Shown: positions 16,527-64,000 of the stretch, piece by piece
How positions within the stretch are numbered: the first letter of the stretch is position 1
Layout: every line of letters begins with the position of its first letter
NCBI GenBank assembly: GCA_015065785.1
Contig: SVPR01000007.1
Span: forward strand, 35,634 to 99,633
Origin: Oscillospiraceae bacterium
GTDB taxonomy: Bacteria; Bacillota; Clostridia; Oscillospirales; Acutalibacteraceae
Direction of reading: 5' to 3'
Length of the DNA: 64,000 nt
Translations under genes and position numbers: made by a program
Notes under the pieces: generated by a model
The model's database searches: none
Seen by the model: the letters and a program-made list of their open reading frames with translations, nothing else
What the model was told of the DNA's origin: nothing

Positions 16527-16763
16527 TGGGGCACCCTCCGTAAGGAAGGTGCCCCAGTTATATTCGCCTGACGGCGAGTTATATTGCTTCGCAGTTATAT
16601 GATGCTTATGCATCGTGATATTGCCTTTCGGACAGTTAAAATGCGAATATAATATCACGAAAGCCGATAGGCTTTCATATTACTTTGCTACTAGGCAAAA
16701 TATCACTGTGAGACCTGTCTCACAATATCACTTATTATTCTTGGTTTTTTATATAAAAACCAA
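16527..16763. repeat. array of ~10 dissimilar short hairpins joined by a constant heptamer (GTTATAT x3, GTGATAT, then ATATCAC x3 / ATATTAC)
   Basis: Plus-strand stems: 16527-16556 (12-bp), TCGCC/GGCGA 16564-16577, TGC/GCA 16585-16593, GATGC/GCATC 16601-16614, 16622-16634 (bulged), GAAAGCC/GGCTTTC 16659-16676, TTTGC/GCAAA 16684-16699, TGTGAGA/TCTCACA 16707-16724, TTGGTTTTT/AAAAACCAA 16741-16763. Heptamers at 16557, 16578, 16594, 16615 (forward) and 16652, 16677, 16700, 16725 (inverted). Confidence 0.8.
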
Positions 16764-18820: not shown

Positions 18821-18866
18821 ATGTGTACCCATCAGTAAAATCAGAGATTTTACTGATGGGTACATT
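18821..18866. terminator. bidirectional intrinsic terminator
   Basis: About 18-bp stem TGTACCCATCAGTAAAA / TTTTACTGATGGGTACA, flanked by A-run and T-run. Confidence 0.8.
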
Positions 18867-19951
18867 TAAAATATTTCTTTCATTAAATTTTCTGTGATTT
18901 CTTCAATTACCGAAAAATCGGTTGCTCTTATATAATAATCCTCTAATCTGTCGTGAATTCCTTTTGCTACCGATATTTTCTTTACTGCCTCCGAAAGCAT
19001 TTCCTGTTGTGTTTTTTTATTGAATTTCAAGCGCTCCTTGATTCCCTTAAGAGCTTCTTTATTTAAAAATCTTGTAGCGTGAACAACCTTTTCATCACCA
19101 AGAAGTGATTTATGAGAAGAATTTTCTGTGAAGAAGCAAAGCTTTAATTCAGGAATTATTATATGTTCTATTTTCGCAGTCGGAAAAATCGGGCAATAGC
19201 AAGCATAAATATCATAGCCATTTTCTAAAGCGTATTCTGCAATATAATCCATAATTGCAGGGGTGCAAACCGAAAAATCGTCTTCAATAGTAATTATTTT
19301 TTCGCTCAATGCCACTATTGTGTCATACTGCAAAACCACACCATCAGGTGTAACTGCACTTAAAAATCTTCTGTTAAGATTACCTCTTTCAGCACCTTTT
19401 CTTGTCGGAATTTCTCTTTTACAAAGTCTTTCAGCATAGTTTCTGACCTTTTCTCTGTCTGTAATTTTATCGCAAAGCTTCATTGCTTCAAGCTGGAGCT
19501 TTGATGTCACTAAGATATATTCTGAAGCTTTTTTATGCAAACGCTTATTTTCATCCGCTAAATTCATAATTGCAGTTTTATATTCATTTAAGTACTTTTT
19601 ATCCCACGCCTCACCAAGATTTATAATACACTCAGTAACACCCGGATAAGTTGCATCAAATGTATGCGGTGCAGTGCCGTCAAGAATTGAAAAATTGATT
19701 TCAGGTGCTATTACAATATCAAGTGAATTCGGGTCAGCACTGCAATAGCCTCTTTCAACGAAATACCCTTTTTTCTCTAATTCAACAGCCAGTTTTTTCA
19801 TCAGTGTGGATTTACCTGTGCCTGGTCCACCTTTTAAAATATAATGCATTCCATCTGCCTTATTATCATAAGCAGAAGAAAAAAGTGAAGTATATTCTTT
19901 TCTTGAATTCGCACCAAAGAAAAATGATACAGGTGTAATTGTTTTAGTCAT
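18866..19951 (-). CDS. uncharacterised P-loop NTPase
   Basis: Walker A GGPGTGKSTLMKK. ATG 19951 (MTKTITP...) follows AAGGAG, whereas the track start at 19978 has no RBS. Walker-B-like SILDGTAPH. Confidence 0.7.
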   Translation of the reverse strand: MTKTITPVSFFFGANSRKEYTSLFSSAYDNKADGMHYILKGGPGTGKSTLMKKLAVELEKKGYFVERGYCSADPNSLDIVIAPEINFSILDGTAPHTFDATYPGVTECIINLGEAWDKKYLNEYKTAIMNLADENKRLHKKASEYILVTSKLQLEAMKLCDKITDREKVRNYAERLCKREIPTRKGAERGNLNRRFLSAVTPDGVVLQYDTIVALSEKIITIEDDFSVCTPAIMDYIAEYALENGYDIYACYCPIFPTAKIEHIIIPELKLCFFTENSSHKSLLGDEKVVHATRFLNKEALKGIKERLKFNKKTQQEMLSEAVKKISVAKGIHDRLEDYYIRATDFSVIEEITENLMKEIF

Positions 19952-20033
19952 AACATCACTCCTTGATTGATAAACCAAAATTTATCACTTACAGAGCATA
20001 CTATGAATTTTTGTGGCTTAATGTTACAAAAAT

Positions 20034-20217
20034 AATGCAGAATGCAGAGTGCAGAATGCAGAGTTTCGGAACTGCGTTGGCAATTATAAAGTGCTGAATG
20101 CTGAGTGCTGAGTGCTGAATTTCGGAATGTGCGTTGGCAATTATAATTCGGAATGCGTAATGCGTAATTCGGAATTGAAGGGTCTGCGACGCAATTATAA
20201 TTAAATAACAAAAGATA
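20034..20217. repeat. heptad blocks A (AATGCAG x4, 20034-20063), B (AGTGCTG x4, 20090-20119) and C (TTCGGAA TGCGTAA TGCGTAA TTCGGAA, 20147-20174) separated by 26-27-nt linkers TTTCGGAA(C/TG)TGCGTTGGCAATTATAA
   Basis: Read directly. Linkers at 20064-20089 and 20120-20146, variant TTGAAGGGTCTGCGACGCAATTATAA at 20175-20200. Palindrome AATTATAATT recurs at 20139 and 20193. Confidence 0.85.
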
Positions 20218-20263
20218 AGTTCTATCATTTAAAGTTTTTCGTAAACTAAAAATGATAGAACTT
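20131..20263. repeat. direct repeat copy 1 (133 bp, identical to 20680-20812)
   Basis: Base-by-base visual comparison shows no mismatch over 133 bp. Similarity extends about 12 bp further left with 1 substitution and 1 indel. Confidence 0.85.
20218..20262 (-). terminator. conserved core hairpin of the composite element, copy 1
   Basis: Minus strand AAGTTCTATCATTTTTAGTTT-acgaa-AAACTTTAAATGATAGAACTT, followed by ATCTTTTGTTATTT. Confidence 0.7.
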
Positions 20264-20285
20264 ATTTATTTTCAGCGAAGCAATA

Positions 20286-20627
20286 CCTTCTTTGAAAAGA
20301 AGGGGGACCATTCTTCATATAAACTATATTCCATAATATTTTTCAAGCGTGTAGCAAAGTTATTTTCAAAATTTAAGTTAAAGCGGAATGGTGGAAAATT
20401 GATATAAAAATACGCTTTAGCGTACGGACACGAGGTTAATATTATTAATACTCCAACCTCATTGCCTTGCACTACCGTGCATTTTAATATCAATTCTCCA
20501 CCAAGCAAGCTTGGTCCCCCTCTTTTTCAAACGAGGTCGGGCTTCGCGTTCGGTTCACGCGTTGCACTCGATTGCTTTGTTAAAATAAAAACTACTCCCA
20601 CTACTGCGGGCGACCACAGGTCTGCCC
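20286..20627 (-). ncRNA. candidate structured RNA, unclassified (multi-stem domain in the unique core)
   Basis: Long-range stems 20297-20310/20512-20524 (13 bp, 1 bulge) and 20389-20405/20487-20503 (17 bp). The second encloses three perfect hairpins (20411-20424, 20432-20460, 20469-20480). Further hairpins at 20501-20514, 20532-20570, 20608-20627. The single non-Watson-Crick pair in the 17-bp stem is G-U only on the minus strand. Confidence 0.4.
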
Positions 20628-20637
20628 CTACCATTTT

Positions 20638-20669
20638 AGAATTAAGAATTAAGTATTAAGAATTAAGAA
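20638..20669. repeat. heptad block D (AGAATTA AGAATTA AGTATTA AGAATTA AGAA)
   Basis: Read directly. Followed by linker copy 20670-20695 and block C copy 20696-20723. Confidence 0.85.
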
Positions 20670-20679
20670 TTTCGGAACT

Positions 20680-20812
20680 GCGTTGGCAATTATAATTCGG
20701 AATGCGTAATGCGTAATTCGGAATTGAAGGGTCTGCGACGCAATTATAATTAAATAACAAAAGATAAGTTCTATCATTTAAAGTTTTTCGTAAACTAAAA
20801 ATGATAGAACTT
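20680..20812. repeat. direct repeat copy 2 (133 bp), offset 549 bp from copy 1
   Basis: Identical to 20131-20263. Confidence 0.85.
20767..20811 (-). terminator. conserved core hairpin of the composite element, copy 2
   Basis: Identical to 20218-20262. First terminator-like structure downstream of the GPH transporter gene (stop at 20927). Confidence 0.7.
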
Positions 20813-20852
20813 GTTGTTTTTATTGACTAATAATTATAATCAAGGCGAAGCC

Positions 20853-20893
20853 TTCCGAAATTCAGCACTCAGCATTCAGCACTCAGCATTACT
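20853..20893. repeat. heptad block B' (inverted copy of block B plus TTTCGGAA)
   Basis: The reverse complement AGTAATGCTGAGTGCTGAATGCTGAGTGCTGAATTTCGGAA aligns with 20089-20127, differing only at three A/G positions. Confidence 0.8.
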
Positions 20894-20926
20894 TTGGCTT
20901 ATCATTCAGCTCTTGAGCGAAGCGAA

Positions 20927-22471
20927 TTATTTTTTCCTTGCTGCAATTTCTGCAACCATCTCTGCCTGGCGTTTTTCTGTGAGCTTGTAGAAGAACATTG
21001 GAACTGCACAAGCGAACATACTGATAACACCTGCACCTACGAGCATATTCCAGAGAGTGTTTGCACCCTCTTGTGAAATGAAGCCTGTTTCAGCGTCGAT
21101 ACCTGCTGCTGCGAATGAAATAACACCGATAAATGCACCAACTGCCATACCGATTTTGTTGATAAGTGTCTGCATAGCAAAGCAAATACCCTCACCGCGT
21201 TCACCTGTTTTCCATTCAAGATAATCAACAGTATCACCAATCATTGCATAAGTAATAATGTTGTTAACACCTTGTGGAATACCGAGAAGAACAAGTGCAA
21301 TAGCACAAATTACTAATTTCCAAGGAGCGTCGTAACCAACGAAATACATAATTCCCATTACAACGCCACCGAAAATGTGAACTGCAACATAAGCCCATTT
21401 CTTTGTGAATTTCTTTGACATCCACGGAACGAGTAATGAAGCAACAAGACCGCCCGGAACAACAAGAAGTGTTATTAAACTATACATACCCTCATTCTGA
21501 AGAACATACTTTGCGAAATAAAGTCCGCCTGTGTATGTATAAACCATTCTCGCACCGCCGAGAATACCTGAAAGAACGATTAAAAGAAGCTCTTTATTTT
21601 TAAAGAGGAGCTTTAAGTTGTGACCAAGGCTTGGTGGGTTATCGTCTGCAGTGAAGCGTTCCTTTGTGTGCTTAAAGCCATAGAAGAACATTGGAACTGC
21701 TACAATAACAAGTACAACTGCACAAATGAAATATGTCATTTTAAGAGTGTCTGCATTTGCGAGCTCCTGACCTTTAATGACTGTACCAACAAAATTCTGA
21801 GCAACATCAGCAGTTACACCTTTATCAAGCATAATTTGTCCAATATCATCAACAGTATATTTATATTTTGAAGTAACAGCATTTGTAATAATAGGAACAA
21901 AAACAGTAACAATACCTGCACCTAATGTGCAAAGAAGACGGGTAATTGTAAGCATATTACCACGAACTACTGTGTCATTGGTCATACAGGTTGAAAGTCC
22001 CCAATAAGGAACATCTGCAACTGTGTAAACAACTGACCAGATAACATAGATAATTGCGATTATAATAAATGATGAGGTTGCTTTTGCCTGGAATGCAGGG
22101 AGGAAGCAAGCTAAAGTCATAATACCGATTGGAATTGCCATCCATTTAAGGTAAGGACGACATTTACCCCATTTAGTTCTTGTTCTGTCAACAATACTAC
22201 CCATAATAGGGTCATTAAATGCGTCAAAAATACGAGTACCGAGCATTAAATAAGCAACAGCCATTGAACCTGCAACAGAGCCTACTGTAACACCATCAGC
22301 ACCAAAAAGAAGCGCATCTGTTAAAAAGATTGTTAAATAGGAACCGATAATTGTACAAATAAAGTTCTGACCGAAGCCTGCTATACCGTAAGCAATGGCT
22401 TCTTTTGGTTGAAGGTTTCCGTCATTTGGTGTAGTGCCGTAAACCTTATGAAGTAAATCATTGATTTTCAT
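20927..22471 (-). CDS. GPH-family MFS sugar symporter
   Basis: 514 aa polytopic. FDAFNDPIMGSIVDRTRTKWGKCRPY signature loop. AAAGGTGA RBS. Confidence 0.8.
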   Translation of the reverse strand: MKINDLLHKVYGTTPNDGNLQPKEAIAYGIAGFGQNFICTIIGSYLTIFLTDALLFGADGVTVGSVAGSMAVAYLMLGTRIFDAFNDPIMGSIVDRTRTKWGKCRPYLKWMAIPIGIMTLACFLPAFQAKATSSFIIIAIIYVIWSVVYTVADVPYWGLSTCMTNDTVVRGNMLTITRLLCTLGAGIVTVFVPIITNAVTSKYKYTVDDIGQIMLDKGVTADVAQNFVGTVIKGQELANADTLKMTYFICAVVLVIVAVPMFFYGFKHTKERFTADDNPPSLGHNLKLLFKNKELLLIVLSGILGGARMVYTYTGGLYFAKYVLQNEGMYSLITLLVVPGGLVASLLVPWMSKKFTKKWAYVAVHIFGGVVMGIMYFVGYDAPWKLVICAIALVLLGIPQGVNNIITYAMIGDTVDYLEWKTGERGEGICFAMQTLINKIGMAVGAFIGVISFAAAGIDAETGFISQEGANTLWNMLVGAGVISMFACAVPMFFYKLTEKRQAEMVAEIAARKK

Positions 22472-41895: not shown

Positions 41896-41905
41896 TATGT
41901 TTTTT

Positions 41906-42025
41906 AGTGGTCAGTGGTCAGTTATTAAGTATAAAAGTTCTGCCATTCTTAGTTTACAAAAAACTAAAAATGACAGAACAAACTATTTTTATATCCAGCG
42001 ACTGACCACTGACTTACTGACCACT
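41906..42025 (-). repeat. complete composite element: arm (GTGGTCA heptads) / core hairpin / inverted arm
   Basis: Arms 41906-41923 (AGTGGTCAGTGGTCAGTT) and 42001-42025 (ACTGACCACTGACTTACTGACCACT) are complementary apart from one extra unit. The right arm overlaps the argF stop codon (42024-42026). Confidence 0.8.
41937..41979 (-). terminator. conserved core hairpin, copy 3; terminator of the arg operon
   Basis: Minus strand GTTCTGTCATTTTTAGTTT-tttgt-AAACTAAGAATGGCAGAAC followed by TTTTATAC. The two non-Watson-Crick positions are G-U on the minus strand and C-A on the plus strand. Confidence 0.75.
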
Positions 42026-43010
42026 ATTTAAGCGTAGCTAACATAACTGCCTTAATTGTATGCATTCTGTTCTCTGCCTCCTGGAATACAACTGATTGCT
42101 CACTTTCAAAAACATCGTCAGTAACCTCAACTGCAGTTCTGTTGAACTTATCGCAGATTTTTTTACCGATTTCTGTCTTTTTGTCGTGATAAGATGGAAG
42201 ACAGTGCATAAAGATTGTGTCTTTGCCTGTGTGTGACATTAACTCTTTATTTACTTGATATTTAGAAAGGTCGTTAATTCTTTCTGCCCATACAAGCTCA
42301 GGCTCACCCATTGAAACCCAGACATCTGTGTAAACAACATCTGCGTTTTTAACTGCAGAAACAGGGTCCTCCGAGAAAGTGAGTGTAGCACCTGTTGTCT
42401 TTGCAATTTTTTTGCATTCGCCAACTAAATCTGTATCAGGAAAATATTTTTTAGGTGCACAGGCAACAAAGTTCATACCCATTTTTGCACAGCCCACCAT
42501 TAAAGAGTTACCCATATTATATCTTGCATCGCCTAAATAAACGAAGTTAATGCCTTTTAAGTAGCCAAATTTTTCTTTAATTGTAAGAAAATCTGCAAGA
42601 ATCTGTGTAGGGTGAAATTCATTTGTAAGGCCGTTCCATACAGGAACAGAAGAATATCTTGCCAATTCTTCAACAACCTCTTGCCCGTAGCCACGATATT
42701 CAATTCCGTCATAAATAGAAGAAAGCACTCTTGCTGTGTCAGCAATACTTTCTTTTCTGCCTATCTGAGAAGCAGACGGGTCAAGGTAAGTAACGCCCAT
42801 ACCCAAATCTCTTGCCGCAACCTCGAAGCTACAACGGGTTCTTGTGCTTGTTTTTTCAAATATAAGAGCAATATTTTTACCCTTTAAAACCTCGTGAGAA
42901 ACATTATTTTTCTTTTGCTCTTTAAGCTCTGCCGCAAGGTCTATAAGATATTCAATTTCTTCGCTTGTGTAGTCAAGCAACTTTAAAAAATCTCTACCTG
43001 CTAAATTCAT
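42024..43010 (-). CDS. argF: ornithine carbamoyltransferase
   Basis: [17 protein letters not shown] motifs. 328 aa. Confidence 0.93.
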
Positions 43011-63865: not shown

Positions 63866-63868
63866 TTT

Positions 63869-64000
63869 CAGGAATCAGGAAGCAGAAATCAGAAATCAGG
63901 GCTTCGCTAAAATTAAATTCATCCTATCATTTTTAGTTGGTATTAAAACCAATTGGAATGATAGGATGACTCTTTACATTTATAATTTGGGTTGAAAACA
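63869..64000 (+). repeat. composite element on the plus strand, truncated by the window end: heptad block, GCTTCGC, spacer, core hairpin
   Basis: Block CAGGAAT CAGGAAG CAGAAAT CAGAAAT CAGG (63869-63900), GCTTCGC (63901-63907), core hairpin 63920-63968 with 5' arm CATCCTATCATTTTTAGTTGGT. The expected inverted arm would lie beyond position 64000. Confidence 0.7.

What the first reader, a model, noticed from the sequence alone, without database searches (positions are those of the whole stretch)
20131..20812. Perfect 133-bp direct repeat at 549-bp offset bracketing a 416-bp unique core
20131-20263 and 20680-20812 are identical by base-by-base reading. Each copy contains linker, block C, variant linker and a core terminator hairpin. 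Removing one repeat plus the core (549 bp) would leave a single regular composite element in which block B (20090) and block B' (20853) flank one core hairpin.

That is the signature expected for one of three events: (a) homologous (Campbell-type) insertion of a small circular molecule carrying the 133-bp segment, (b) a recent segmental duplication with an insertion, or (c) gene conversion keeping the two copies identical.

A 133-bp duplication is much longer than a transposase target-site duplication.
Basis: partly seen in the sequence, partly recalled or inferred. Interest (0 to 1): 0.62.

Follow-up and report, generated by a model that had tools for sequence, protein, structure and literature searches.

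The report
Two neighbouring copies of a dispersed repeat
The perfect 133-base repeat is real, but it is two side-by-side copies of a multi-copy intergenic repeat module of a gut Clostridia bacterium, with a second kind of hairpin-forming repeat between them, and I found no sign of an active excising circle.

Summary
20130-20263 and 20679-20812 are identical (134 bp, offset 549), in a 950-bp gap between an MFS_2 transporter gene and a P-loop NTPase gene.

- **Extra DNA is real.** Orthologous gaps in sister lineages (76-92% identity) carry one composite element, no second copy and no core. The extra DNA was therefore gained in this lineage.
- **The repeat is not private to this locus.** A third copy lies at another locus of the same species and matches copy 2 over 178 nt. 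Exact-match unitigs of the module run at about 8-10 times the depth of the flanks.
- **The "unique" core is not unique.** Window 20275-20547 is a 273-nt foldback repeat (LH). It occurs in other contexts in at least four Acutalibacteraceae/Oscillospiraceae MAGs and one metagenome contig.
- **No sharp edges.** Similarity continues past both ends of the perfect stretch with mismatches. That fits homologous exchange or gene conversion, not a target-site duplication.
- **No empty site.** Contig collections hold no empty-site form. Every same-species contig that spans the gap has the two-copy form.

My reading is a BIME-like mosaic of heptamer-armed terminator hairpins, reshuffled by homologous recombination. 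This is a new variant of a known kind, of moderate interest.

The parts
20034..20063 (+). Heptamer arm A (AATGCAG x4)
   Evidence: Nearly the same arm (A') sits at the third locus.
20064..20089 (+). Linker La (TTTCGGAACTGCGTTGGCAATTATAA). It is identical to 20670-20695.
20090..20119 (+). Heptamer arm B (AGTGCTG/AATGCTG). It is inverted to B'.
   Evidence: I3, I8. L017 has the same arm type at the orthologous site.
20120..20146 (+). Linker Lb. It differs from La by ATGT versus ACT. The left edge of the perfect repeat falls inside it.
20131..20263 (+). Repeat copy 1: end of linker, arm C (20147-20174), variant linker Lv (20175-20200), spacer, hairpin H1 (20217-20263).
   Evidence: The link to the LH core is confirmed by k141 contigs L007, L009 and L010.
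20264..20274 (+). T-rich joint ATTTATTTTCA between H1 and LH. The same kind of joint precedes LH in L013 and L022.
20275..20547 (.). LH, a 273-nt foldback repeat with ends GCGAAGC...GCTTCGC and imperfect inverted arms of about 41 nt. It is non-coding.
   Evidence: The 416-nt core that contains LH folds with z = -7.6 on the plus strand and -6.5 on the minus strand. Full copies are in L013 (85%) and L022 (79%). Partial copies are in L011, L012, L014 and L015. There is no conserved ORF, Pfam hit or Rfam hit.
20548..20637 (.). Tail, with a GC hairpin at 20607-20627. It is found after LH in L012 as well.
   Evidence: The L012 alignment is 77% over 143 nt. Two stem pairs change on both sides. The tail is single-copy by depth.
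20638..20669 (+). Heptamer arm D (AATTAAG). It has no inverted partner in the window.
20667..20844 (+). Module M (La-C-Lv-spacer-H2-T2-start of Lr). It is 178 nt and identical to the copy at the 155-aa/ABC-transporter locus.
20680..20812 (+). Repeat copy 2 (hairpin H2 = 20766-20812).
20832..20860 (-). Reverse linker Lr, with the mini-hairpin AAGGCGAAGCCTT.
20861..20890 (-). Heptamer arm B', inverted to B. It closes the whole structure.

Best explanation
The gap between the transporter and NTPase genes is a mosaic cluster of a modular intergenic repeat family, BIME-like in design.

**Building blocks**
- Each unit is an arm of four 7-nt repeats plus a 26-nt linker with a mini-hairpin and AATTATAA.
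- An AT-rich, terminator-like hairpin H sits at the centre.
- An inverted linker and arm lie on the far side.

**What the 133-bp repeat is**
- It is the shared part of two neighbouring members of one highly homogeneous module, La/Lb-C-Lv-H.
- That module also exists elsewhere in the same genome.
- Between the two members lie a second dispersed repeat (LH, a 273-nt foldback), a tail, and an unpaired arm D.

**How it arose (inferred)**
- The extra 549 bp entered an ancestral single composite element closed by the B...B' arms. This happened after the split from the lineage that is about 92% identical.
- The route was homology-driven exchange between module copies: ectopic recombination or gene conversion, of which a one-step crossover with a circular or linear donor is a special case.
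- The copies are identical because the family is kept homogeneous by recent spread or conversion.
- The structure appears fixed in the sampled population, not in flux.

**Likely role (inferred)**
H followed by a T-rich run marks the 3' end of the transporter operon, and the arms lengthen the stem.

**Shown versus inferred**
- Shown: the anatomy, gain in this lineage, dispersal of both repeats, and fuzzy repeat edges.
- Inferred: the recombination route and the terminator role.
For: **Gain in this lineage.** Orthologous gaps of 260-300 bp (L016-L019) and 498 bp (L039, L042) hold one hairpin and no LH.

**The module is dispersed.**
- A third identical copy lies between a 155-aa gene and an ABC transporter gene in at least six assemblies (L028-L032, L034). 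It matches copy 2 over 178 nt and has its own pairing arms.
- Exact-match unitigs inside the module have depth 36-54. Unique flanks have depth 4-6, and the H1-to-LH junction about 6.

**LH is dispersed.** Full or partial copies lie in L011-L015 and L022 in unrelated gene contexts. None of these copies is bracketed by long direct repeats, so the 133-bp duplication is not a footprint of LH insertion.

**Edges look like homology, not cuts.**
- Left edge: TTTCGGAA-CT versus TTTCGGAATGT.
- Right edge: ATTTATTTT versus GTTGTTTTT.
- Similarity therefore continues beyond the perfect stretch.

**The family recombines on a strain time-scale.**
- The interior between arms E and E' is inverted between L038 and L042, with 100% identity on opposite strands.
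- The central module is inverted between the window and L017.
- Strain L036 carries a cluster of differences in the spacer between linker Lv and the hairpin, plus a different right arm, at the third locus. Its left flank is identical.
- Contig L001 joins the two loci through the shared 178 nt.

**No mobility enzyme nearby.** None of the 34 window ORFs scanned shows a transposase or recombinase.

**Precedent.** REP/BIME clusters are associated with recombination (PMC3184786, read).
Against: - No donor locus carrying LH-tail-D-La-module was found.
- The depth-based copy number may include other organisms that share the exact module.
- The L001 join may be a chimeric assembly and not a real recombinant. 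No reciprocal product was found.
- Three complete LH copies all sit about 10 nt after an H-type hairpin. That could point to targeted insertion instead of recombination.
- The terminator role is untested. The consensus scan did not call H, because its stem has too few G-C pairs. No RNA runs were available.
Confidence: 0.55

Rival explanations
1. One-step Campbell-type integration. A 549-bp circle (LH-tail-D plus one module copy) recombined with the resident module, either by homologous crossover or through a site-specific recombinase that uses the module as an att/attC-like site. It might still excise.
For: - The layout X-core-X, with each flank differing just outside X, is what a single crossover in X predicts.
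- Relatives have the single-copy form.
Against: - No empty-site contig exists in the metagenome or GTDB genome collections.
- Both contigs that span the gap are two-copy and 100% identical to the window.
- The window holds no integrase or recombinase.
- A 549-bp circle has no replication function.
- LH copies elsewhere are not flanked by module duplicates.
- The circle itself could not be tested with k=31 contigs.
Confidence: 0.15
2. Hairpin-targeted transposition of the IS200/IS605, PATE or REPIN type. A 549-bp unit that starts just after an H hairpin and ends with an H hairpin was pasted at the 3' foot of the resident H. The repeat is perfect only because the target and the element end belong to the same homogeneous family.
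For: - LH lies 9-12 nt after an H-type hairpin in all three full copies. An H-type hairpin follows it 12-14 nt later in L011 and L013.
- There is no target-site duplication at the LH ends, as in the IS200/IS605 family.
- The H stem sequence (CTATCATTT/AAATGATAG) is conserved across species whose genes are only 78% identical.
Against: - No Y1/HUH transposase was seen in the window, and none could be sought in the genome.
- The segment between LH and the next H differs in every copy, so no 549-bp unit recurs.
- The left edge of the identity lies inside a linker, 86 nt before the hairpin, which a cut at the hairpin foot does not explain.
Confidence: 0.15
3. Pure gene conversion. LH arrived flanked by two different H-type hairpins, as in L013. 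Both flanks were later overwritten by the spreading module, which made them identical.
For: - H-LH-H with unlike hairpins is the arrangement in L013.
- Module replacement at the strain level is seen in L036.
- Edges of identity inside homologous sequence are typical of conversion tracts.
Against: - Two or more separate events are needed.
- Relatives at 92% identity have neither LH nor a second hairpin, so nothing was there to convert before LH arrived.
Confidence: 0.12
4. Assembly artefact. The core was placed between two collapsed repeat copies by mistake.
For: - The module is a repeat longer than most k-mers.
- One contig (L001) resolves it differently.
Against: - The core is joined to the module on both sides in independent assemblies from at least eight samples.
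- The copy 1 linkage needs only 135 nt and is covered by k141 contigs.
- L005 and L008 span the gap.
Confidence: 0.03

Closest known systems
REP / BIME clusters of Enterobacteria, and REPIN doublets with RAYT transposases (Bachellier et al. 1994; Bertels & Rainey 2011, PMC3116915; review PMC3184786)
   Same: - Extragenic and palindromic, sitting after genes.
- Built from a few unit types and conserved linkers stacked in mosaics.
- Inverted pairs around a spacer.
- Associated with recombination and with mRNA 3' ends.
   Different: - The arms are locus-specific runs of 7-nt repeats instead of one conserved GC-rich palindrome.
- The centre is a 47-nt AT-rich hairpin with a T-rich run.
- There is no GTAG/CGTC tag.
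- No RAYT gene has been identified.
- The host is an Oscillospirales Firmicute.
Inverted pairs of heptameric simple-sequence repeats (GGGAATC of Xanthomonas, Rehm et al. 2015, PMC4692102; cyanobacterial STRR; TAACTGA repeats of Beggiatoaceae, PMC4679880)
   Same: - Intergenic runs of 7-nt units, often as convergent pairs that can form stem-loops.
- Length and sequence vary between close relatives while the position is kept.
   Different: - Here the unit sequence differs from locus to locus (AATGCAG, AGTGCTG, AATTCGG, AATTAAG).
- The units are A/T-rich with no G-quadruplex potential.
- The arrays are joined to conserved linkers and a conserved central hairpin.
Prokaryotic MITEs, for example Chunjie and Nezha (PMC3184786, PMC10969869), as the comparison for the LH core
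   Same: - 273 nt long, non-coding and multi-copy.
- Terminal inverted repeats.
- Folds into a very stable long hairpin.
- Truncated copies exist.
   Different: - No target-site duplication at any of the three complete copies.
- No parent insertion sequence is known.
- Copies sit next to terminator-like hairpins.
BOX elements of Streptococcus pneumoniae (boxA-boxB(n)-boxC; my own knowledge and table 1 of PMC3184786)
   Same: A modular repeat in a Firmicute, with a variable number of internal units and a stable predicted fold, lying in intergenic regions.
   Different: - No sequence similarity.
- BOX modules are fixed sequences, not heptamer arrays.
- BOX has no central terminator hairpin.

Membership tests
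REP/BIME/REPIN-RAYT | Short (20-40 bp) imperfect GC-rich palindrome, usually tagged GTAG or CGTC at one end | tested here: not met
   The central hairpin is 47 nt, AT-rich and untagged. The linker mini-hairpins have stems of 3-5 bp.
REP/BIME/REPIN-RAYT | Many extragenic copies, clustered as mosaics of units and conserved linkers | tested here: met
   Stacked arm-plus-linker units lie at this locus and in L015 and L042. There are three exact module copies at two loci, and the depth is about 8-10 times the flanks.
REP/BIME/REPIN-RAYT | A cognate RAYT (Y1 HUH) gene in the genome, flanked by the repeats | not testable with these tools
None was seen among the 34 window ORFs scanned.
MITE (for LH) | Terminal inverted repeats | tested here: met
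   Arms 20275-20315 and 20507-20547 are 41 nt and 78% complementary. They are conserved in L013 and L022.
MITE (for LH) | Target-site duplication flanking each copy | tested here: not met
   The flanks of the three full copies and four right ends show no direct repeat.
MITE (for LH) | Multiple dispersed copies, and empty sites in relatives | tested here: met
   Copies lie in four MAGs plus one metagenome contig, in different gene contexts. The orthologous site is empty of LH in six related lineages.
Campbell-type or cassette (integron-like) integration | Detectable empty site and/or circular form | tested here: inconclusive
   The empty-site pattern gave 0 hits in two collections. No joint skipping 549 bp was seen. 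k=31 contigs cannot phase a 133-bp repeat, and no raw-read runs were offered.
Campbell-type or cassette (integron-like) integration | Recombinase or integrase gene next to the site | tested here: not met
   No recombinase family was found in the ORFs of the 64-kb window that were scanned.
Transposase target-site duplication | Short (2-14 bp) exact duplication with sharp edges and unrelated flanks | tested here: not met
   The exact duplication is 134 bp, and similarity continues with mismatches on both sides.
Known structured RNA (Rfam 15) | Score at or above the gathering threshold of a family | tested here: not met
   Only Gut-1 at 16555-16626 passes. The best hits in 19900-21000 score far below threshold.
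Intrinsic terminator (for hairpin H) | Stable stem-loop followed directly by a U-rich run at a gene's 3' end | tested here: inconclusive
   H folds at about -22 kcal/mol and is followed by a T-rich run on both strands. H-type hairpins sit after genes at 41939 and 63923. The consensus scan did not call H. No RNA data were available.

The most novel reading that the evidence does not exclude
The homogeneous module (linker-C-linker-hairpin) is a dedicated recombination site of an undescribed cassette-type system in Oscillospirales, and LH is a mobile structured element that lands beside terminator hairpins. On this reading, X-LH-X is the integrated form of a small cassette that can leave as a 549-bp circle. 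The same machinery would produce the inversions of composite interiors and the locus-specific heptamer arms.
Probability: 0.07. Interest if true: 0.75.

Novelty: new variant of a known kind. Interest (0 to 1): 0.35.

Why it matters
The finding shows what a striking "perfect long direct repeat around a unique core" can really be. Here it is two members of a homogeneous modular repeat family lying side by side, with a second repeat between them.

These heptamer-armed, terminator-centred elements appear undescribed in the literature I searched. At this locus they:
- change between strains by inversion, module replacement and unit stacking;
- break or mis-join metagenome assemblies;
- in one case supply the last 20 or so codons of a gene.

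They therefore matter for MAG quality, for strain typing and for reading 3'-end regulation in gut Clostridia. The enzyme or process that builds them remains an open question.

Tried and rejected
- **Whole-genome search.** Closed, so copy numbers rest on contigs and depth.
- **Rfam.** No family matches the region.
- **Plasmid, phage and viral collections.** No match to the core or the module. A plasmid or phage origin is therefore unsupported. So is the idea that LH is a rolling-circle single-strand origin, which I raised only because of a TAGCGT hexamer.
- **Degenerate CRISPR array.** The 56-nt period of arm plus linker suggested it. I rejected it because the "spacers" are tandem heptamers and the units are palindromically paired.
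- **Coding core.** The ORFs are not conserved between LH copies and have no Pfam or protein-database hit.
- **Covariation in LH.** Three copies are too few, and the stems hardly vary.
- **RNA evidence.** No runs were available.
- **Logan contigs for excision or circle joints.** They are uninformative. The k=31 unitigs stop at the repeat, and heptamer arrays from many organisms swamp the region.
- **Reciprocal product of the L001 join.** Not found.
- **Second metagenome scan for the core.** It gave only one true LH copy. That collection evidently does not hold the JGI contigs that the look-up of encoding contigs returns.

Full report
**1. The observation**

The stretch 20131-20263 is letter-for-letter identical to 20680-20812. 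The exact match is 134 bp, starting at 20130/20679, with an offset of 549. Similarity goes on beyond both ends with mismatches. On the left the two copies read TTTCGGAATGT and TTTCGGAA-CT. On the right they read ATTTATTTT and GTTGTTTTT. BLAST therefore reports 156 nt at 96.8%.

The repeat lies in the 975-bp gap between two minus-strand genes. One is an MFS_2/GPH transporter (20927-22471). The other is a P-loop NTPase of unknown function (18866-19951).

The layout on the plus strand is:
- arm A, linker La, arm B, linker Lb;
- arm C, linker Lv, hairpin H1;
- an 11-nt T-rich joint, LH, the tail, arm D;
- linker La, arm C, linker Lv, hairpin H2;
- T-run T2, reverse linker Lr, arm B'.

Arms are four 7-nt units. 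Linkers are 26-27 nt, with a mini-hairpin and AATTATAA. B and B' are inverted. With the 549 bp taken out in silico, the rest folds as one long hairpin closed by B/B' with H at the tip.

**2. It is not an assembly artefact**

- Contigs from other metagenome assemblies are 100% identical to the window across the gap (L005, and L008 as far as 20890).
- Seven more run from one flanking gene through a repeat copy, most of them into the core (L002-L004, L006, L007, L009, L010).
- The link Lb-copy 1-LH needs only 135 nt to be resolved and is present in k=141 contigs.

**3. The extra DNA was gained in this lineage**

I took homologues of the NTPase and members of its 90% cluster, and fetched their contigs.

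- Species with 76-89% protein identity (L016, L017/L018, L019) keep the transporter-NTPase synteny. Their gap is 260-300 bp and holds one regular composite element: arm, linker, H, linker, arm'.
- Closer relatives at about 92% nucleotide identity (L039, L042) have a 498-bp gap. It holds one hairpin and several stacked arm-plus-linker units.
- None of them has LH or a second module copy.
- L017 has B-type arms like the window, so B...B' is old at this site.
- L037, L039 and L042 carry C-Lv, 98% identical to the window's in L037.

**4. The repeat is a dispersed module**

Contig L001 follows the window at 99.97% identity up to 20659 and then continues into other genes. I followed those genes. In at least six other assemblies the 155-aa gene is followed by a 247-bp gap and an ABC transporter gene.

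That gap holds a regular composite element: arm A', linker La, arm C, linker Lv, hairpin H, T-run T2, linker Lr, arm A''. The 133 bp are present there without a single difference. Identity to window copy 2 runs for 178 nt, window 20667-20844.

L001 is therefore one of two things. It may be a real recombinant between the two loci. It may instead be a mis-join through a 178-bp repeat that is longer than reads and k-mers. I found no reciprocal product.

In four faecal metagenomes I compared exact-match unitig depths:

| Region | Depth |
|---|---|
| Inside the module | 36-54 |
| T2-Lr piece | 24-41 |
| Unique flanks | 4-6 |
| H1-to-LH junction | about 6 |
| Tail | 4-7 |

This suggests roughly 8-10 module copies per genome equivalent. 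The caveat is that other organisms may share the exact sequence.

The module is also better conserved than the genes around it. It is 90% identical over 144 nt in L017, where the genes are 78% identical.

**5. The core is not unique**

A 24-nt word from the core found five loci in four GTDB MAGs, three labelled Acutalibacteraceae and one Oscillospiraceae. A 20-nt word found one true copy in a metagenome contig.

Alignment defines LH as a 273-nt element at window 20275-20547. Its ends are GCGAAGC...GCTTCGC, and its arms are imperfect inverted repeats of about 41 nt. The 416-nt core that contains it folds with z = -7.6 and -6.5 on the two strands.

- Full copies: L013 (85%) and L022 (79%).
- Right-arm pieces: L011, L012, L014, L015.
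- L012 also has the tail. Its GC hairpin keeps the same shape through changes on both sides of two pairs.
- Gene contexts differ: after a terminator, between divergent genes, and next to a gene start.
- The ends show no target-site duplication.
- No other LH copy is bracketed by a long direct repeat.
- All three full copies lie 9-12 nt after an H-type hairpin. In L011 and L013 another H-type hairpin follows 12-14 nt later.

LH has no conserved ORF, no Pfam or Rfam match, and no match in plasmids, phages or viral contigs. Loose ends in the Logan data show further LH copies with other right flanks.

**6. Tests of excision**

- A pattern that requires the left junction of copy 1 and the right junction of copy 2 within one module length found nothing in metagenome contigs or genome contigs.
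- No joint skipping 549 bp appeared in the Logan contigs.
- Those contigs are built with k=31, so they cannot cross a 133-bp repeat. No raw-read runs were offered.
- The circle therefore remains untested. All I can say is that the sampled population looks fixed for the two-copy form.

**7. The family recombines**

- The interior between the inverted arms E and E' is flipped between strains L038 and L042, with 100% identity on opposite strands in a k141 contig.
- The central module is flipped between the window and L017.
- Strain L036 has a cluster of differences in the spacer between linker Lv and the hairpin, plus a different right arm, at the third locus. Its left flank is identical.
- The window holds no transposase or recombinase among the 34 ORFs scanned.

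**8. Reading**

The 133-bp identity is what two members of a homogeneous module family have in common. It is not a target duplication.

The most economical account is homology-driven exchange among module copies: ectopic recombination or gene conversion. This brought LH-tail-D plus a second module copy into an ancestral B...B' element, after the split from the 92% lineage. The zero differences in 133 bp reflect family-wide homogenisation. I put this at about 0.55.

The rivals are:

| Rival | Confidence |
|---|---|
| One-step Campbell-type circle integration | 0.15 |
| Hairpin-targeted transposition of the IS200/IS605 or REPIN type | 0.15 |
| Pure conversion of two formerly unlike hairpins flanking LH | 0.12 |
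| Assembly artefact | 0.03 |

The likely role of H plus its T-run is to end the transporter operon. The canonical GC-rich terminator seen in L042 is missing in the window. This role is inferred, not shown.

**9. Comparison with known systems**

In design, this works like REP/BIME mosaics and REPIN doublets. It shares the inverted heptamer arrays described for Xanthomonas (PMC4692102). LH resembles a MITE without a target-site duplication (PMC3184786).

It fails defining features of each:
- no GC-rich tagged REP palindrome;
- no known RAYT;
- no target-site duplication.

I therefore file it as a new variant of a known kind and not as a member of any of these families.

Earlier notes of this scan report heptamer-armed palindromic elements in many other genomes, some carrying small genes. 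I used them only as leads.

**10. Limits**

- No RNA data were available.
- There were too few LH copies for a covariation test.

Noticed in passing
L038:1-79 versus L042:2544-2622 (orthologous gap in relatives about 92% identical): The segment between the inverted heptamer arms E and E' is flipped between two closely related strains. It is 100% identical on opposite strands in a k141 contig. The composite interior behaves like an invertible segment.
   Followed up: partly
L017:3729-3870 versus window 20701-20844: The central module (Lv-H-T2-Lr) is 90% identical in a species whose flanking genes are only 78% identical, and it lies in the opposite orientation. The module is either mobile or under its own constraint.
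   Followed up: partly
L001/L027 (JGI sample 3300029705), around L001:5628-5860: This 49-kb contig joins the 155-aa-gene locus to the transporter locus through the shared 178-nt module. All other assemblies keep the two loci apart. It is either a rare recombinant or a chimeric join, which is a warning for MAG assembly.
   Followed up: partly
L030:2126-2200: The ABC transporter gene at the third locus ends inside the composite element. Its last 20 or so codons are encoded by the right arm and reverse linker (...ECRMQNFGSPADLIIIISQ*).
   Followed up: no
L036:1000-1181: In another strain, the module at the third locus has a tight cluster of differences in the spacer before the hairpin, and a right arm identical to the window's B'. 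The left flank is unchanged. This looks like a conversion or replacement tract.
   Followed up: no
window 41905-42030 and 63868-63965: Two more regular composite elements. Each has locus-specific heptamer arms (AGTGGTC and TCAGGAA) around an H-type hairpin with the shared stem CTATCATTT/AAATGATAG, and each sits directly after a gene end.
   Followed up: partly
window 16555-16626: A Gut-1 RNA (RF01706) hit at 53.6 bits, above the gathering score. It is part of a longer array of mini-hairpins at about 16527-16763.
   Followed up: no
window 20607-20627 versus L012 (tail after LH): The GC hairpin keeps the same stem-bulge-stem shape, with two pairs changed on both sides (GGGCGACC/GGTCTGCCC versus GGGAGAGC/GCTCATCCC). 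Its core GACCACAGGTC also occurs in a linker of L042.
   Followed up: no
window 20275-20281, 20541-20547, 20845-20851: The heptamer GCGAAGC/GCTTCGC recurs at the LH termini and in the reverse linker. From my own knowledge, this is the very stable d(GCGAAGC) mini-hairpin.
   Followed up: no
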